Positions 2,554-57,732 of a stretch of 64,000 bases of DNA are shown one piece after another. The position numbers and the translations under genes were made by a program. The stretch covers positions 48,360,001 to 48,424,000 of the forward strand of contig NC_042999.1 of the NCBI RefSeq assembly GCF_006345805.1, read 5' to 3'. Position 1 is the first letter of the stretch, and each line of letters starts with the position of its first letter. The DNA comes from Octopus sinensis. Taxonomy: Eukaryota. The notes below the pieces were generated by a model, which ran no database searches, was not told the DNA's origin, and worked only from the letters and a program-made list of their open reading frames with translations.

Positions 2554-2879
2554 ATATGTGTGTGTGTGTGTGGTGTGTGTGTGTGTATGTGTATATAATG
2601 TATCGTTAATGCGTGTATGTCCATATATTTGCATATGCATGTTTATGTATGTGAATGTACTTCTATACATATATGGGCATTGCTACACATGTATATATAT
2701 GTATGTATATATATATATATATATTGTGTGTGTGTGTGTGTGTGGTGTGTGTGTGTGTGTATGTGTATATAATGTATCGTTAATGCGTGTATGTCCATAT
2801 ATTTGCATATGCATGTTTATGTATGTGAATGTACTTCTATACATATATGGGCATTGCTACACATGTATATATATGTATG

Positions 2880-2915
<36 letters not shown>

Positions 2916-3184
2916 GTGTGTGTGTGTGTTTGTATGTGTGTGTGTGTGTGTGTGTGTATGTGTGTGTGAGAGAAAGAGAATGTGTGTGAGTTTTAAGTTT
3001 TCCCGTCATGTACAGAAAAAAACATGAAACTAAGATATGACGGGCAATATATGGATTCATAAAATATTCTCTCTTCAGTATTTCAGAGACATAGTCTTGG
3101 ATTAAGGTGATCTAATAACTTGGTCCATTCGAGGTGATCTGTGTGAAAGTCCCATCATTCCATAAATCTATATATTTCACTGCA

Positions 3185-3567
3185 AGGAGGCGCAATGGCC
3201 CAGTGGTTAGGGCAGCGGACTCGCGGTCGTAGGATCGCGGTTTCGATTCCCAGACCGGGCGTTGTGAGTGTTTATTGAGCGAAAACACCTAAAGCTCCAC
3301 GAGTCTCCGGCAGGGGATGGTGGTGATCCCTGCTGTACTCTTTCACCACAACTTTCTCTCACTCTTGCTTCCTGTTTCTGTTGTAACTGTATTTCAAAGG
3401 GCCGGCCTTGTCACTCTCTGTGTCACGCTGAATATCCCCGATAACTACGTTAAGGGTACACGTATCTGTGCAGTGCTCAGCCACTTACACGTTAATTTCA
3501 CGAGCAGGCTGCTCCGTTGATTCGGATCAACCGGAACCCTCGTCGTCGTAACCGACGGAGTGCTTCC
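3185..3567 (+). mobile_element. tRNA-derived SINE, family 1, full length with 13-bp TSD
   Basis: Head ggaggcgcaatggcccagtggttagggc...ggtttcgattccc has A-box and B-box-like motifs. TSD atatttcactgca at 3172-3184 and 3568-3580. Confidence 0.9.
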
Positions 3568-3614
3568 ATATTTCACTGCATATATATATATACAAAGGGA
3601 GAGAGAGAGGAACG

Positions 3615-3663
<49 letters not shown>

Positions 3664-3771
3664 ATAATGTATCGTTAATGCGTGTATGTCCATATATTTG
3701 CATATGCATGTTTATGTATGTGAATGTACTTCTATACATATATGGGCATTGCTACACATGTATATATATGT

Positions 3772-3832
<61 letters not shown>

Positions 3833-4076
3833 GTATGTGTGTGTGTGTGTATGTGTGTGTGAGAGAAAGAGAATGTGTGTGAGTTTTAAGTTTTCCCGTC
3901 ATGTACAGAAAAAAACATGAAACTAAGATATGACGGGCAATATATGGATTCATAAAATATTCTCTCTTCAGTATTTCAGAGACATAGTCTTGGATTAAGG
4001 TGATCTAATAACTTGGTCCATTCGAGGTGATCTGTGTGAAAGTCCCATCATTCCATAAATCTTATATTTCACTGCA

Positions 4077-4459
4077 AGGAGGCGCAATGGCCCAGTGGTT
4101 AGGGCAGCGGACTCGCGGTCGTAGGATCGCGGTTTCGATTCCCAGACCGGGCGTTGTGAGTGTTTATTGAGCGAAAACACCTAAAGCTCCACGAGGCTCC
4201 GGCAGGGGATGGTGGTGATCCCTGCTGTACTCTTTCACCACAACTTTCTCTCACTCTTGCTTCCTGTTTCTGTTGTACCTGTATTTCAAAGGGCCGGCCT
4301 TGTCACTCTCTGTGTCACGCTGAATATCCCCGATAACTACGTTAAGGGTACACGTATCTGTGCAGTGCTCAGCCACTTACACGTTAATTTCACGAGCAGG
4401 CTGCTCCGTTGATTCGGATCAACCGGAACCCTCGTCGTCGTAACCGACGGAGTGCTTCC
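4077..4459 (+). mobile_element. Duplicate of the family 1 SINE (part of the tandem duplication)
   Basis: Near-identical to 3185-3567, with the same TSD at 4064-4076 and 4460-4472. Confidence 0.9.
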
Positions 4460-4505
4460 ATATTTCACTGCATATATATATATCAAAGGGAGAGAGAGAG
4501 GAACG

Positions 4506-4531
<26 letters not shown>

Positions 4532-5065: not shown

Positions 5066-5415
5066 TAAAGATCCAGTAGACGTAGCATCAGCAAAAATAT
5101 ACTCCATTCACTGAGAATAAATATCCATTCAAGTATTCAACTGCAGGTGTTATGTGATTCATGCTCTTATGATACTTGAACAGGCATGTTTATTTAAACA
5201 GGCGCAAATATGTTAAAGCAATATATCAGGTTGTGTTTGTGCGTCATATATATGCATAATCAAGGACGCCGAATAGTAAGAACATTAGAAAAATAGTTGA
5301 TGCAAAACTGAAACGAGACAAAAGAAATGAAACAAGATGATTACTATCCTCGTCCTCCTTGATTGCATAAATCTTATTAAATACAACTGGCTTAGAATAA
5401 AATAACAGAAAATTG

Positions 5416-6311
5416 GGGGGAAATCCTCCTCGTCGAAACGAAACTCTGGAAGGAAAACAAAACTGTCAGATAGGGACTGTCAGACTCTTACACAAATTGT
5501 TAAAAAGGTTCACAAAAGTACAGCTCCCAAAATTACTGCAGCACTTAATTACCACCTAGGGAACCCAATTTCCACAAAAACTGTTTGCCGGAAGCTGCAC
5601 AAAGCGGGATTATACAGGAAGGCTGCAATCAGAAAAAACACTACTGTCAAAAACAAACGTTGCAAAACGTTTAGTGTGGAGTAAAAACGTACGGAATGGG
5701 TCCCTAGAGCAGTGGAAGAATGTTATTTCTTCGGACGAGTCATCCTGTACCGTATTTCCGACCACCGGCCGAGTATACGAGTGGAGACAGCCAAAACAAG
5801 CATTTGACGCAGACTGCTTTCTACCGAGTGTTAAACATGGAGGAGGATCTGCGATGATCTGGGAGGGCTATATCTTGGAAATCCGCCGGCCCTATGCCTT
5901 CGCTTCATGGCGGAATTAATAGGCAAGACTATTTAAACATTTTATATGATCAAATTCATCCCATGGTTGCAGAACTATTTCTGGAGAGAAACGCAATCTT
6001 TCCGGATGATAATGCACACAGCTAAAGTTGTTACTGAATGGCACGAGGAACATTCTCCTAAAGTTGAACATCTTATCTGCCCACCACAGACACCAGATCT
6101 CAATAATATTGAAGATTTACGATGCATTTTAGAAGAACTGGAGACCGTTTTAGCTGAATGGACAAAAAATCCTTTGGAAAAAATTCAATCTTTGTACGAG
6201 TCCATACTTCATAGAATTCAAGCTGTAATTACTGCCAAAGGCAGTCCTACTCCGCATTAAGATAAATGTGTTTGAAATTTTAAGCTATCCCATTATTTTG
6301 TCCAACCCCTG
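5416..6311 (+). pseudogene. Tc1-family transposase remnant with right TIR
   Basis: Frameshifted translation SGRKTKLSDRD...WKNVISSDES...VKHGGGSAMIW...PPQTPDLNNIE...RIQAVITAKGSPT. Ends ttttgtccaacccctg followed by TA. No left TIR found. Confidence 0.92.
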
Positions 6312-32282: not shown

Positions 32283-33139
32283 ATATATAGATGTATGTAT
32301 GTAGGTATGTATGCATTGATATACATAATGTTTTATTTGCAAATATATCATAATCATTTTTCATTTTTATTTATATGGCACTGGCTTCGGCTAAATTTCA
32401 TTTGTTGCTCATGATGAATATGCTTGTTACTCAAGCTTCAAATTTGAGCTAGTAACAAAATTATATTCCTTCTCACCGGATTACCGAACGGGTGATTTTT
32501 TCATTCATTTCCACTGATGTTTATTGGCAGTTGAACATACACACATAAACACACATTTACAAATACACCCATACATATGTATATTGTAAGTCGATGTTAT
32601 GTAATATATATATATATATACATACTTACACACGCACATATTTTATCGACAACACATAATCCCGTAGGATGTATACTTGTTCGCCGGTAGGCTGTCATTT
32701 AAAAATTTGAGTATCACTCACTCAAATAATCGCTCGTAAAACAACCGAATACCTTAGAATTCATAAAAATGTACAATCTACCCCAAACCCAATTCAGAAG
32801 TTTTGTACATAGGTATTTCTCCATTTTTGTGGATTATCAATATCACGAAGCGAGACCGAATCGTGCCGAACTTATTCACCAGTCTATGACTACAAATAGT
32901 GTTAAAGTAATTTGCTAGTATACCACGACGACATATACGTTGAAATTAATTAAAGTATGAATCGGAAGCAATGCTAATGTAGTAAACGTCATTTACTCTA
33001 TGTACTCGTGTCCATCAATGTCCATCGCTGTTGAATGGGATTCGAAGTGTGTTGAATCGCTTATGTATCAGGTTTCACTCGGCGGTTTGAGTAATCCTCA
33101 CCGAGCAAAACAACAGACGAAAGGAATGGGAAGTTATAC

Positions 33140-33830
33140 ATGAACTGAAAAATAACTACATTATAATTAAGGAAGTAGATAAGGAAAGAGCTACAGTTAT
33201 TTTGAATACAAAAGAGACATACTACCTTTATTACAAGGTACGTTTACCTATGTAAAGCTAAGCAGTTACCAAATGTAAAAGACAGTGACGAAACTGAACA
33301 CACACGTCCATAGACATCATAAAGTTTGGATTACTAAAGAATGTAACTACCTAATCCATTTTTATTGCAGGAGTAGCTACCTCTACGTTTTCCCGAGAAT
33401 TCCAAAGAATCAAATTATTACGAATGCATGTAAAGAACCAACTTCATGTTGCATAAACATAATATATCCCACCGACCTTAAATGTCGGTCAATTGTAGCA
33501 GGCTCGAACTCTGCATCTTTTTAGATATATTACAGAAACCTATTTTAAAATACCAAGTCTTGTTAAAACCACCTCCCAAAAATCCATAAACTAATATAGA
33601 ACTATTGTATTTTTTAATGTGGTAAACAACTATACCTCAATCTCACGCCCATATGGACTATAGGCAATACATTTCTGACTTCAGAAATTCCCTGATGTAA
33701 TTCCAGACAGAATTGAAAAAGTTTCAACACTGAAGGATTAAAATTCATGCCAGTAAACACCTTCTTCTTGACATCCATGGCAATATCTACAAAGAAATAT
33801 CTGGAACTACGATGGGAACAGACGTTGCTG
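33140..33830 (+). pseudogene. Penelope-like reverse transcriptase remnant
   Basis: IIIKEVDKERATVILNT (cf. IKPADKGGAVVI), SYLYVFPRIPK...PTDLKCRSIVAG (cf. FYGLPKIHK...RPIVA), LDILQKPILK, and FNVVNNYTSISRPYGL*AI (cf. FDVxxLYTxIP). Confidence 0.82.
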
Positions 33831-52775: not shown

Positions 52776-53104
52776 TATATATGTGTGTGTATGTGTGTGT
52801 GTGTGCCTGTGTGTGTGTGTATGTGTATATATATATATATTGATATACATATACACTTACAGATATTCAAAAACAAGTACAGCGAGGTGAATAAAAATTC
52901 ATATATATTCACTTACATATGGAAATATATGGAAATGTATCTGTAGGCAGGGATGCGAATTGCGGATTTAGATGGGAGAAAACATTTAACATAGACCAAT
53001 ACTGAAATATATGATTGAGATACAGACATATTTCCATATATTTATGTATGTAAGTGAATATATATGAAATTTTATTCATATTACTGTACATTTGTATATC
53101 TGTA

Positions 53105-53135
<31 letters not shown>

Positions 53136-53422
53136 AATGTGTATATATATACACACATAAATATATATATGTATATATATATATGTAAATTTATAAATAA
53201 GGATAATATCAATATTTCAATATCGATATTATTATGTGGCCAGCATTGGAATAAATACCATACAAAGGTCATAGTTTTTTACAACTAAAAATAAGGGTGT
53301 ATGGAGACACCACCATGCCGAAATATCAGTCAAATCCCTGACTCTAAAAAACCCTTTAAATGTTCATATCGCACCATGAGATAAGACAGAGGGACAAAAT
53401 AGCAAAAATATATTACTGAATA

Positions 53423-53481
53423 ATTCAAGATCCTGGATTTCTAGCTTTGCTTTAAATAAGCTCAACTTTCATCAGTTGAAT
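53423..53481 (-). ncRNA. Minimal type-I hammerhead ribozyme motif with intact core
   Basis: Minus strand: attcaa-CTGATGA-aagttgagcttatttaaagcaaagcta-GAAA-tcc a gga-TC-ttgaat. Perfect 6-bp stem I, palindromic stem III, AUC cleavage triplet. Confidence 0.8.
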
Positions 53482-53891
53482 ATATCAGATGGGCACATGA
53501 ATACAAATATATATATATATACAGAACAAAAGTTATACTTATATATACGAACGTCCATACATACATATATATGCACGTATTTACAAGGCCAGTTCAAATT
53601 GCCCGCCAACTATTTTTAGTTGTGAAAAATTATTACATTTGTATGGTATTTATTCCCCTGCTGGCCACTTGATAATATCGATATTCAAATATCGATATTA
53701 TCCGTATTTATAAATTTATATAATTCGTCACTATATTCACTGCGGTGTTTATTGTGACCATATCGTGGTTGGCGGGCAATTTGAACTGGCCTTGTACATA
53801 CGTGCATATATATGTATATATGGACGTTGTATATGTAAGTATAACGTTTGTTCTGTATATATATATTTGTATTTATGTGCCCATCTGATAT

Positions 53892-53939
53892 ATTCAACTG
53901 ATGAAGGCCGAGCAAAGTTAGACATCCAGGATCTTCAAT
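53892..53939 (+). ncRNA. Degenerate second copy of the hammerhead motif
   Basis: attcaa-CTGATGA-aggccgagcaaagtta-GACA-tccagga-TC-ttcaat. GAAA is changed to GACA, so probably inactive. Confidence 0.6.
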
Positions 53940-54152
53940 TATTCAGTAATATCTTTTTGCTAGTCTATTTTGTCCCTCTATCTTATCTCGTGGGGCGATA
54001 TGAACATTTAAGGTGGTTCTTAGAGTCAGGGATTTGACTGCTATTTCGGCATGGTGGTGTCTCTCAGACACCCTTATTATTAGTATGTATGTATATATAT
54101 ATATATATATATATACACTGGAGTAAGCACATAAACATATATATGCTTTATT

Positions 54153-54261
54153 TAAAAGCAGTAGAAATATAACAAAAGCTTTTATTTAGAGGTTCACTTT
54201 CCCGACGAACGGGAACGTGAAACTTTGACTAACGGCTTTTGTTATGTTTCTGCTGTTTTTA
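54153..54261. repeat. Short palindromic MITE-like hairpin
   Basis: aaaagcagtagaaatataacaaaagc...ttcac.ttcccg acgaa cgggaa.gtgaa...gcttttgttatgtttctgctgtttt. Confidence 0.85.
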
Positions 54262-54324
54262 CACAAAATTATATATATGTATATATATATGTGTGTGGGG
54301 GGTGTTTGTGTGTGTGTGTGTATA

Positions 54325-55900
54325 ATATGAGACAATTAACTTGTAGACCTGATAAAACTCCGTTTTCGGATATCGGGGCGGAAACCCACACCAGCATCTC
54401 TTCAGTTATCGGGCCATTGAAAAAAATGCCATGAAAATGACCTTTAAAGGGAAATTACTGTGTGGTTGACCGTTATTAACACAGAAGAGCTATTAGGATG
54501 GCCGCTAAGTAAGGGGAGGGTGTAAATGCAAGGTAGTACATGTGTTCATAGTAATCGCGTAAATACCCATGTCCATACAGACATTGCGCGCCCGCACACC
54601 CACGTACATGTGGCTATATGTGTATAGTCATCCACCCTCACTTGAAATACACACATGCTCACCTACACTTTCGCTAATAAAATAAAAACATACACGTACC
54701 TGCATACACGCTAGCACACGCACACACATACACGCACAATAAAGGTTCACACACACGTCTATGTACGCACATGCACATGAAAAAACAGAGCTAAAGATGA
54801 CTACAGAACAGTGTAAAAAATAATCAATAAGAATAAGAAGTAAAGGATTAAATATGCGCATGAGAATGCGTATGAGCGCATGTTCATACATAAACATGCG
54901 CGTACGCACACCCACATATATATGTGTATATGCTCATCCACTTGAAACACACATGCGCACCCACACTTTCGCCAACAAACAATTTATGTATACGCGTACG
55001 CACGCGCACAAAACAGCTTCATATACATATCTTTATACACACATACTCGCATGCACGCGCACACACACGTCTATATACGCACATACCCGAACACATGCAC
55101 ACATCCACACGCGCGCACAAAAATTCCATATGCACGCCTATATACGCACAGGAAAAATGCAGTTTGGAAGGTAAAAATACAGAAAAAATTACGTGTAAAA
55201 ACTTATATGAGCAATAAACCTATAAAACAATATCTCTAGAAATATGTAAAAAAATATATATATAAAAATATATAAGAAATATAAGTAAAGAGTATAGAGA
55301 GATTAAAACTTGTACGTGGGCACAATATAACAAAGCAAGTCCTATCTGTAATCTTGGGGAGACCAAAAACCTAACAAATATTTAGCTACGCGTGGACCTT
55401 ATCCGAAAAGTTCAGTTTTTGAATTTAGACATGTGGCTGAATCTAAGCTGCTTTTTCATGAGCCATCTTTCCATATGAGAAAGACCATACTTTCCACTGC
55501 CGTTGGTGTAGGGCTTACACTTGGCTAAGATCTTCGAATGGATGTTTTAACTGACACCTTTATCTTTTAAGGACCATATATGACTGCATAATTTGGTCGT
55601 TTTCCTTTAATACCAGTGCCTGAAGCTCAAGGTTTGATTATTGAATCTTGTCTTGAAATTACCCTCTGTAAGGCCCACGTATTTCTTCGTCGAAAATGTG
55701 TCCATAATGAATGTCCACGGTGTCGTCATAAATGATAGTCTTGGTCAGGCAAGCTCCATTTAGCGGGCAAAAATTTTTATCCCTGCATGAACAGCTGGTT
55801 TTATTTCGTGGTATGGAAAGATGGCTCATCGGGAAAAGCAGCTTAGACCCGGCTACATGGCTAAATTCAAGAATTGAACTTTCATCAATTATCGGCTGTT
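54325..55900 (-). mobile_element. Penelope-like element 3' portion: GIY-YIG endonuclease remnant (about 55400-55800), low-complexity 3' region and hammerhead
   Basis: TSCSCRDKNFCPLNGACLTKTIIY...KKYVGLTEGNFKTRFNNQTLSFR...TKLCSHIWSLKDKG, with stops and a frameshift. Confidence 0.88.
54348..54413 (-). ncRNA. Hammerhead-like motif at the 3' end of a PLE remnant
   Basis: Minus strand: gataa-CTGAAGA-gatgctgg...ccgatatc-c-GAAA-acggag-UU-ttatc. Stem III is imperfect. Confidence 0.6.
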
Positions 55901-57732
55901 CATCTACTCCACATTTCGAGTAATTAACGACAATATATGGCTTCCAAAACCAGTTGCTCGCGTGAACCAGAAGGAGGAAGAGGGGGGGAGAGAGAGATAT
56001 AGATAGAAAACGGTGAAGGGAAGAAAAAGAATTAGAGAAAGAGAGAGAGAGAGAGAGAATGAAAGGGGGGGGGAAGAGAACAGTACTGCCTAGGGTCGCA
56101 TCAAAATTATTAATATAACCTTACTCGGAAATGGATGCGTGGCGTGTAATCATATCGTATGAATAATAAATATATATGATGGGGGGTGGTGTTTATATTG
56201 ATAGGTAGATAGATAGATATACAAATACGTATACATATGCATAATATAAATATATGCATATATATGTACATTTGTATATATATATATATATATGTACATA
56301 CTTACATATATATGTATATATGTATGCGTATATGGGTAGAGGACGTCACAAAACGTAAACAACATGAACTGTATATACATACATGGTACACACATTACAT
56401 ACATACGTACGCTAGATGCCATATAGATTTATGTACAGACGCACACACACACACACACACACATTTATATATATATATATATATAGGCAGAGACAGAAGG
56501 AAAGAAAGATACGATGTTTGATACGATAGGCTCAATGCACTTCGCCGTATGTGTATGTGTCCGCATATTGTGTATGACAGTGTGTCTATGTGTCCTGTAT
56601 TAACACTTTCTTTACTTTCTTCAGTAAAGTATTTTCTTTTGTTTCGTATTCCTTTATCTTCAATAACTTGGAGCAACGTTAAACGTAAAAGCATTTATGA
56701 GAGAAAAGACCAAGTAATTGTCTGGAGTACATATAGATAAAGATATCTTCGTGCCATACATTATTCACATTATATGGCTTTGTGGATATGGTGGAAGTAT
56801 TTTCAATGCACCCGTCGTTTTAAGTTTTGGGAACTAATAGTAATCAATAGAAACGTTGCAGTTATCGAAAATCTGCAGTACACATCTATCTATCTATCTG
56901 TTTATCAATCTACTTGTCTATCTATCTCACTATATATATATATATATAATATATATAGATAAAGAGAAAAAGAGAGCGTCGTGTGTGTGTATGTATGTGT
57001 ACATATAATATATAATATATATTTATATATATGTATATCAAGAGAGAGAAAGAGTAAGGTAGATTTATATAGATATAGGATAGACATGAGAAATCATATA
57101 CCTATGGAGAGTCCTGTAGATATAAGTATAAATGTATATACATTCTTTAAGCTTTTTTATTAGATTGTGTTATGAATATAAGCTTAAAGTAGTAACATTA
57201 CTGACTGTATTTTGTATAACAATTTTCATACAAGTTTTAATCTAGCTGATTTAAAATAATTAAAATAGAGTGACAGTTCCTGTCATTATTTTGCGTTATG
57301 AATTGTAGAATATAAAACAAATTAAAACTTTATTTACACGATATTTATTTTATACGGTATGCAAAATAATGGAATATTCTCCACGGGAAATTATGAAAAA
57401 CCATAAGTAGTTATCTACTAATAATAATTTTCTTCAACAGAAAAAGTACGGGATTATTGTTAATATATTAGATAACTGCGCCGATGAGAATACTAGGAAG
57501 TCTGGCATGTCATAATATGTACATGTAATGATAGGTGACATTTCAAAATCACAATGTGCTTTTACTTTTACAACTACAATTAGGTTATAGCCACATGAAA
57601 ATGAATATTCAGTGAGCAACAGCAAATGATTTTGTTGCTTTGGAGATGTATGATTGAAATTTAAATTACATGAAGTTCAACGTAGAAGTTTTTTGTACTT
57701 CATTATTTCAAACAACGCACATACGCATGTAA

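What the first reader, a model, noticed from the sequence alone, without database searches (positions are those of the whole stretch)
53183..54078. Hammerhead-bearing module in an interleaved A-B-A'-B' double inverted repeat
Seen: two inverted pairs that cross rather than nest (A 53183-53293 with A' 53611-53722; B 53290-53610 with B' 53768-54078). B carries a hammerhead motif, so each strand has one: intact core on minus, GACA mutant on plus. Established: Penelope-like elements carry hammerheads in their pseudo-LTRs and often insert with inverted partial copies. Inference: this is a non-autonomous PLE- or retrozyme-like unit made by template switching. If transcribed, A:A' and B:B' would compete, and B:B' pairing would mask the ribozyme, giving a potential structural switch. 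It could equally be an inert insertion scar.
Basis: partly seen in the sequence, partly recalled or inferred. Interest (0 to 1): 0.75.

Follow-up and report, generated by a model that had tools for sequence, protein, structure and literature searches.

The report
Back-to-back insertion of a ribozyme retroelement
This is one copy of an abundant 488-base non-coding repeat that carries a predicted self-cutting RNA and likely spreads by borrowing the enzyme of Penelope-type jumping genes; its two back-to-back arms end at two different fixed points, which explains the crossed repeats and makes an RNA switch unlikely.

Summary
The crossed repeats and both hammerhead motifs are real. A and B are parts of one 488-nt repeat unit (a-x-B) with hundreds to about 1,500 genomic copies. 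The locus is two head-to-head arms in (TA)n: B-a on the minus strand, a-x-B' on the plus strand. The crossing follows from that permutation and appears in 9 of 61 head-to-head loci. Arms end at two fixed sites about 100 nt apart (E1, E2). Of 41 head-to-head loci with both ends at such sites, 40 have one of each (20 more have an end elsewhere). Partner arms share subfamily variants (388/429; 246 expected), so they likely come from one event. This matches the known Penelope-like 'tail' and head-to-head pattern, with a longer tail. The switch idea fails in folding: B:B' beats the A:A' state by about 230-240 kcal/mol. No autonomous partner was found. Verdict: non-autonomous Penelope-type/retrozyme-like element; this copy is likely an inert scar. 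The scan reported the same two-site architecture before on other DNA of this genome (e1-8807173, e1-10332717).

The parts
53182..53610 (-). E2 arm: unit positions m158-589 (B, then the ~100-nt tail a), 3' end running into (TA)n
   Evidence: Mapping to the family unit, 93% identity; end class E2
53611..54085 (+). E1 arm: a-x-B' (m478-979), 3' end at E1 running into (TA)n
   Evidence: 92% identity to the unit; end class E1; E1 motif at 54071-54084
53182..53293 (-).
53611..53722 (+).
53723..53767 (+). Segment x linking a to B in the unit; 11-nt deletion against the family
53416..53488 (-). Type I hammerhead with intact core; predicted cut between 53429 and 53428; unpaired A.A at the base of helix II; 3-bp self-complementary helix III
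   Evidence: activity untested
53885..53946 (+). Decayed hammerhead (GACA, 11-nt deletion in helix II, helix I mismatch)
   Evidence: same letters in contigs of runs X1 and X4
53610..53611 (.). Head-to-head junction, flush
   Evidence: contigs of X2 and X3
53671..53702 (+). 32-nt palindrome in a just upstream of E2 (second copy at 53202-53232); candidate enzyme-binding or initiation hairpin (inferred)
53109..53181 (.). Left (TA)n-rich target tract
   Evidence: sequence
54086..54114 (.). Right (TA)n target tract
   Evidence: sequence

Best explanation
The locus is two back-to-back arms of a 488-nt non-coding hammerhead repeat in a TA microsatellite, likely laid down in one retrotransposition event by a borrowed Penelope-like RT/GIY-YIG enzyme, and this copy is likely inert. 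Shown: the unit, its partial tandems, the two fixed 3' ends about 100 nt apart, one end of each kind per insertion, shared subfamily variants between arms, TA targets. Inferred: the enzyme nicks both strands of (TA)n; one nick primes cDNA at E1 and the other at E2 on the same RNA lineage (an uncut multimer or a circle, since arms run through the ribozyme site and past one unit length); the two 5'-truncated cDNAs are joined with little or no gap. The crossed A-B-A'-B' pattern arises whenever the E1 arm is long enough to reach the upstream copy of the tail. The ribozyme likely serves the family's RNA (processing or circularisation), not this locus.
For: Copy number: 1579 and 1391 first-look candidates for B and a-x; 121 exact matches of a 27-nt motif, 0 for the reversed control. 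143 loci gave 114 unique insertions: 61 head-to-head, 52 single orientation, 1 tail-to-tail. Of the 61, 40 are E1+E2, 1 is E1+E1, 0 are E2+E2 and 20 have an end elsewhere; single-orientation ends are 24 E1, 23 E2, 5 other; 40/41 gives p=2e-11 at 50:50. Partner arms agree at 388 of 429 subfamily sites against 246 expected, over 41 loci. 121 of 146 outer E1/E2 ends abut TA-rich DNA. 46 of 61 junctions lie between 16 nt overlap and 1 nt gap. 46 of 180 arms are at least one unit long, 133 span a cleavage site and 5 span two. Crossing geometry in 9 of 61. Hammerhead pairs covary across subfamilies (280:346 AU 42/GC 9; 277:349 CG 49/UA 5; 300:320 CG 48/UA 5, of 60 rows). A homologous sister family (score 66 against 27+-3.4 in 300 shuffles) keeps the E1 motif, and 14 of its 16 head-to-head loci are E1+E2 by my reading. 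The genome holds long RT+GIY-YIG frames. Literature: two internal RT start sites define the tail and both strands are cut and extended (PMC11167929); head-to-head arms with the tail often at one end and TA targets (PMC8557442; PMC3846280).
Against: No autonomous partner found: 37 PLE loci showed no terminal homology to this unit apart from an inserted sister-family copy, and no PLE frame abuts a 5' junction in the 114 loci. For this locus alone the arms are no closer than random copies overall (0.910 against 0.912) and share 16 of 19 diagnostic sites (0.65 expected, p=0.06). Gene conversion between arms could also raise sharing, and diagnostic sites are linked, so they are not independent. The tail is about 100 nt against the published 30-40. 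The ribozyme lacks the G10.1-C11.1 pair (A.A 39, C.A 14 of 56), only 38 of 60 copies pass my core test, and its active fold lies 4.3 (family consensus) to 6.7 (this copy) kcal/mol above the minimum-energy fold. Rfam does not recognise it. No long tandem array was seen (longest arm 1048 nt). Loci were chosen as best hits or exact-motif carriers, not at random.
Confidence: 0.82

Rival explanations
1. Two independent insertions: one copy landed in or next to another in the opposite orientation, or a later inversion produced the crossed repeats.
For: In this locus B and B' are only as alike as random copies (0.910 against 0.912). A and B' would join in register at the a|B side if read as one interrupted copy, apart from the missing x. 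TA tracts collect insertions.
Against: The outer ends are E2 and E1 in TA on both sides, the junction is flush, and 40 of 41 comparable loci obey the same rule with shared variants. Independent events would give mixed end pairs and mixed subfamilies.
Confidence: 0.07
2. One primer and self-priming or fold-back template switching: RT copies from one end, then folds back or jumps to an antisense template to make the inverted arm, as proposed for Adineta Penelope elements.
For: Explains the shared variants and short junction overlaps; proposed in PMC3846280 (passages).
Against: It does not by itself explain why the second arm ends exactly at the other fixed site and runs into TA, nor why E1 and E2 arms can each be the longer one (arm lengths).
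Confidence: 0.15
3. A functional RNA switch in which A:A' and B:B' compete to expose or mask the ribozyme.
For: The pairs are mutually exclusive in geometry; A:A' forms 93-99 pairs if B' is held unpaired.
Against: 229-242 kcal/mol in favour of B:B'. The transcription order masks the intact ribozyme on the minus strand, and the plus-strand copy is broken. The locus has decayed at the family's median rate (4.7% against 4.4%, rank 66 of 112). The geometry is a by-product seen in 9 of 61 loci.
Confidence: 0.02
4. The unit is only the pseudo-LTR of a still unfound autonomous PLE, and these copies are its 5'-truncated ends.
For: Hammerhead, tail and an intron-like GT...AG frame around the ribozyme resemble PLE ends.
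Against: Upstream of B the arms continue into x, a and B again, closing the unit on itself (46 of 180 arms at least one unit long). No shared flank among the first 30 loci.
Confidence: 0.08

Closest known systems
Animal non-LTR retrozymes (Cervera and de la Pena 2020, PMC7229834, 12 passages seen; Li, Clavereau and Pollet 2026, bioRxiv 10.64898/2026.07.22.740005, parts 1-3 of 5 read)
   Same: Non-coding unit of a few hundred bases with a type I hammerhead, tandem continuation, short palindromic helix III; a mismatch at the base of helix II also occurs in axolotl HHR_Amex2; proposed to derive from PLE pLTRs.
   Different: Dispersed, mostly sub-unit to 2-unit copies rather than arrays; fixed internal 3' ends and head-to-head arms ('inverted' and 'target site' do not occur in PMC7229834); circular RNA and cleavage not shown here.
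EN+ Penelope-like element insertions (Poseidon of Anolis, PMC11167929, parts 1-2 of 4 read; overview PMC8557442, 12 passages; Adineta Penelope PMC3846280, 8 passages; PLE hammerheads PMC4209133, 12 passages)
   Same: Two RT start sites defining a tail, tail on one arm, partial tandems, inverted 5'-truncated copy head-to-head, AT-rich/(TA)n targets, copies that run through the uncut ribozyme.
   Different: No ORF; tail about 100 nt rather than 30-40; one-of-each rule counted at 40 of 41; partner enzyme not identified; helix II lacks G10.1-C11.1.
L1 twin priming (recalled, not read here)
   Same: Two target-strand primers on one RNA give an inverted 5' part.
   Different: Here the two arms overlap in sequence by up to most of a unit and both start at fixed sites, which needs displacement, a multimer, a circle or two RNA copies.

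Membership tests
Non-LTR retrozyme | Type I hammerhead in the repeat unit | tested here: met
   Descriptor, fold and covariation; no Rfam hit
Non-LTR retrozyme | Non-coding unit of a few hundred bases, without LTR/PBS/PPT organisation | tested here: met
   488-nt unit; no PLE protein match inside the element; PBS/PPT not searched separately
Non-LTR retrozyme | Tandem units with two complete ribozymes | tested here: inconclusive
   5 of 180 arms span two cleavage sites, longest 1048 nt; no long array seen
Non-LTR retrozyme | Self-cleavage and circular RNA in vivo | not testable with these tools
   Only contigs of runs guessed to be RNA were available
Autonomous EN+ Penelope-like element | RT + GIY-YIG ORF | tested here: not met
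   The unit closes on itself; no ORF match within it
Non-autonomous PLE derivative | Two fixed 3' ends (tail), tail on one arm | tested here: met
   40 of 41 classifiable head-to-head loci; tail about 100 nt
Non-autonomous PLE derivative | Partial tandems and head-to-head inverted 5'-truncated copy | tested here: met
   61 head-to-head against 1 tail-to-tail of 114; 46 of 180 arms at least one unit long
Non-autonomous PLE derivative | AT-rich/(TA)n target preference | tested here: met
   121 of 146 outer ends; 23 of 52 5' flanks of single-orientation copies for comparison; no genome-wide TA background computed
Non-autonomous PLE derivative | Terminal homology to an autonomous PLE in the same genome | tested here: inconclusive
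   None in 37 PLE loci out of 5029 first-look GIY-YIG candidates
Non-autonomous PLE derivative | Target-site duplication | not testable with these tools
   Ends lie in (TA)n, where a duplication cannot be read

The most novel reading that the evidence does not exclude
A dimeric Penelope-type enzyme obligatorily primes the two target strands at two different sites of one retrozyme RNA (one subunit at E1, one at E2), likely a circle, copying overlapping stretches by strand displacement. This family and its sister would then be a genomic record, hundreds of events deep, of how animal retrozyme circles integrate and of why PLE tails sit on one arm only.
Probability: 0.3. Interest if true: 0.7.

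Novelty: new member of a known kind. Interest (0 to 1): 0.4.

Why it matters
The locus itself is probably inert. The family bears on an open question: how PLE insertions get their tandem/inverted structure and one-sided tail, and how animal retrozymes integrate. Published work shows two RT start sites in bulk and a tail 'often' at one end. The near-strict one-of-each rule plus shared variants between overlapping arms gives a sharp, testable prediction (coupled priming at two sites per event). Three literature searches turned up no description of this family or of such a count; Repbase/Dfam and paper supplements were not seen and may hold it. The scan has noted the same architecture on other DNA of this genome.

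Tried and rejected
(1) Rfam: nothing at gathering thresholds, only AT-repeat miRNA noise at E<=10. (2) I first read the hammerhead segment in L176 as the pLTR of an autonomous 781-aa RT+GIY-YIG PLE. I rejected this: sibling copies L178 and L179 end before it, and it is a copy of a sister non-coding family sitting in that element's TA tail. (3) Search for PLE frames joined to this family's arms: fragments near L132, L056 and L138 only, none at a 5' junction. (4) Expression: no RNA holder listed. Four runs guessed to be RNA (X9, X11, X14, X19; contigs only) held 119, 43, 59 and 25 pieces over 52900-54300, mostly 90-99% alike; none of the listed pieces crossed the junction, and the table was cut. 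This says nothing on this locus, its strand or A-to-I editing. (5) Ribozyme cut as the RNA 5' end: only 3 of 104 arm starts fall at m330-345. (6) Spliced copies lacking the intron-like m226-366 segment: 0 exact pattern matches genome-wide, 0 of 89 spanning arms (most loci were chosen on the ribozyme, which lies inside that segment), and no such joint listed. (7) A recalled Pfam accession for a PLE domain was not in the library. (8) No earlier scan notes by sequence or nearby. (9) Host-gene context was not established: frames of 90 aa or more in the window were only inspected by eye.

Full report
Observation. The two inverted pairs exist at the stated places: A/A' 112 nt at 89% and B/B' 91%, and they cross. 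B carries a type I hammerhead on the minus strand (core from 53475, predicted cut after 53429). B' carries a broken one on the plus strand, with GACA, an 11-nt deletion in helix II and a helix I mismatch. Rfam does not detect either. Contigs from four DNA-type runs reproduce locus-specific pieces without differences: the junction in X2 and X3 (29 letters on the short side, just under the tool's 31-letter rule) and the broken ribozyme in X1 and X4. A mis-assembly is unlikely, though one run may be the assembly's source.

What it is. B is a genome-wide repeat (1579 first-look candidates; 1391 for A'+x; 121 exact copies of a 27-nt motif). Mapping the loci showed that A', the 45-nt spacer x and B' are consecutive parts of one 488-nt unit a-x-B that continues into itself. 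The window holds two arms joined flush at 53610/53611: B-a on the minus strand and a-x-B' on the plus strand, each with its 3' end in (TA)n. The crossing is therefore a result of circular permutation, not of two modules. It appears in 9 of 61 head-to-head loci; L040 has the same layout and L011, L038 and L060 contain it.

Family anatomy. I used 143 loci: 30 best hits to B, 30 to a-x, and 83 around exact-motif matches. They reduced to 114 insertions: 61 head-to-head, 52 single orientation, 1 tail-to-tail. 3' ends fall at two sites, E1 (end of B) and E2 (end of a, about 100 nt later), each classed within a 25-nt window because TA blurs the edge. Single-orientation copies use both equally (24 and 23; 5 other). 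In head-to-head loci 40 pair E1 with E2, 1 pairs E1 with E1, none E2 with E2, and 20 have at least one end elsewhere (p=2e-11 for 40/41). Partner arms agree at 388 of 429 subfamily-diagnostic sites against 246 expected (41 loci with overlap; identity 0.951 against 0.918). For the window alone the figures are weaker: 16 of 19 (p=0.06) and 0.910 against 0.912. 121 of 146 outer ends abut TA-rich DNA. 46 of 61 junctions are within 16 nt overlap to 1 nt gap. 46 of 180 arms are at least one unit long, 133 span the ribozyme site, 5 span two, and arm starts are not enriched at the cut site (3 of 104). A few copies classed as single orientation have tiny inverted remnants (L021, L026, L095; probably L135). 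Median divergence from the consensus is 4.4%; this locus has 4.7%.

The ribozyme. Among 60 rows from loci L001-L060, helices I-III are paired in 54-60 rows per pair, with two-sided changes at three pairs that follow subfamilies and so count as few events. 38 of 60 pass my core test. The base of helix II is unpaired (A.A or C.A), unlike the G10.1-C11.1 pair stressed in PMC4209133 but similar to the U.U mismatch of a weakly active axolotl ribozyme (PMC7229834). The active monomer fold is 4.3-6.7 kcal/mol above the minimum, and helix III is self-complementary, as in ribozymes that work as dimers. Activity is predicted, not shown.

Sister family and partner. A GIY-YIG search gave long RT+GIY-YIG frames. 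One locus matched the E1 region, but the match belongs to a second non-coding ~477-nt family inserted in that element's TA tail. That family is collinear with ours (score 66 against 27+-3.4, maximum 41 in 300 shuffles; alignment), keeps the E1 motif, has an ~88-nt tail, and 14 of its 16 head-to-head loci pair E1 with E2 by my reading (loci chosen on an E2-ended query). No autonomous partner of our family was found in 37 PLE loci or at the junctions of the 114 insertions.

Mechanism. In Anolis Poseidon the protein cuts and extends both strands of AT-rich DNA, starts at two internal RNA sites whose interval is the genomic tail, uses uncut RNA, and is predicted to be a dimer (PMC11167929). Head-to-head arms with a one-sided tail are typical of PLEs. 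I infer that one target strand was primed at E2 and the other at E1 in a single event, on a multimeric or circular RNA or on two copies from one source, and that the truncated cDNAs were joined. The enzyme, the template form and the coupling are inferred.

Switch. Folding the whole locus gives about 287-289 B:B' pairs and under one A:A' pair on both strands; the A:A' state costs 229-242 kcal/mol. On the minus strand the masking sequence is made first, and the plus-strand ribozyme is broken. A read-through transcript would be a long duplex, as with other inverted repeats; nothing suggests regulation.

Novelty. This is a new member of the retrozyme / non-autonomous PLE kind. It works like a PLE insertion but is not an autonomous PLE. 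Three paper searches did not show this family or the counted end rule; supplements and repeat databases were not seen. I had the end rule before looking up earlier notes, which report the same architecture on other DNA of this genome; those notes also call the genome an octopus, which I did not test. Interest 0.4.

Noticed in passing
window 54330-56120, minus strand: Decayed end of another PLE: a frame with a C-x-C-R...CPL-x-G-x-C motif (55659-56120; I recall this as Neptune-type, Pfam gave nothing useful), followed about 1.2 kb downstream by a second hammerhead-like motif at 54405 and an end near 54330. The motif region matched 2 of 213 held loci.
   Followed up: partly
window 54120-54267: Short fold-back element (58-nt arms) right beside the E1 end in the same TA tract; very high contig depth in DNA runs and matches in 7 of 213 held loci, with unequal head-to-head arms. 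Probably another PLE-type end.
   Followed up: partly
window 52877-53089: 69-nt inverted arms at 86% left of the TA tract; about single-copy depth in contigs and no match in 213 held loci.
   Followed up: partly
window 53835-53963 (+); unit m226-366: Intron-like frame (GTAAGT ... pyrimidine run + TAG) encloses the whole hammerhead; a donor-like motif and a T-run + AG sit at matching places in the sister family (GTAAGT in 22 of 29). No spliced copy was found.
   Followed up: partly
L211:933-2700 (G000:C2:165608500-165617500): A sister-family arm ending at E2 is joined head-to-head, without a gap, to a 5'-truncated Poseidon-like PLE frame. A single case; it could be a two-template insertion that names that family's partner, or chance.
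   Followed up: partly
L176 (G000:C1:207472500-207480500): Young PLE with a 781-aa RT+GIY-YIG frame flanked by a 1653-nt 99.3% direct repeat that includes unrelated downstream repeats, as in 3' transduction; the identical GIY-YIG score recurs at dozens of places, so the family is abundant and recent.
   Followed up: partly
unit m150-159 (window 53610 and 53768): Arm 5' starts cluster at m158-159 (6 of 104 in the motif-selected set), including this locus; partly due to a subfamily variant that breaks alignments there, possibly an RNA start or RT stop.
   Followed up: partly
L037, L044, L052, L060 and others: A subfamily has CCGAUGA in place of CUGAUGA, together with compensatory changes in helices I and II.
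   Followed up: no
L038/L039 and L167: Whole head-to-head insertions duplicated in tandem at 1075 and 770 nt spacing; real duplications or assembly duplicates.
   Followed up: no
window 33109-33711 (+); 5406-6260 (+); 2708-4522: PLE RT fragment; a broken Tc1/mariner-like transposase read from frames (label recalled); a 924-nt 97.6% tandem duplication.
   Followed up: no
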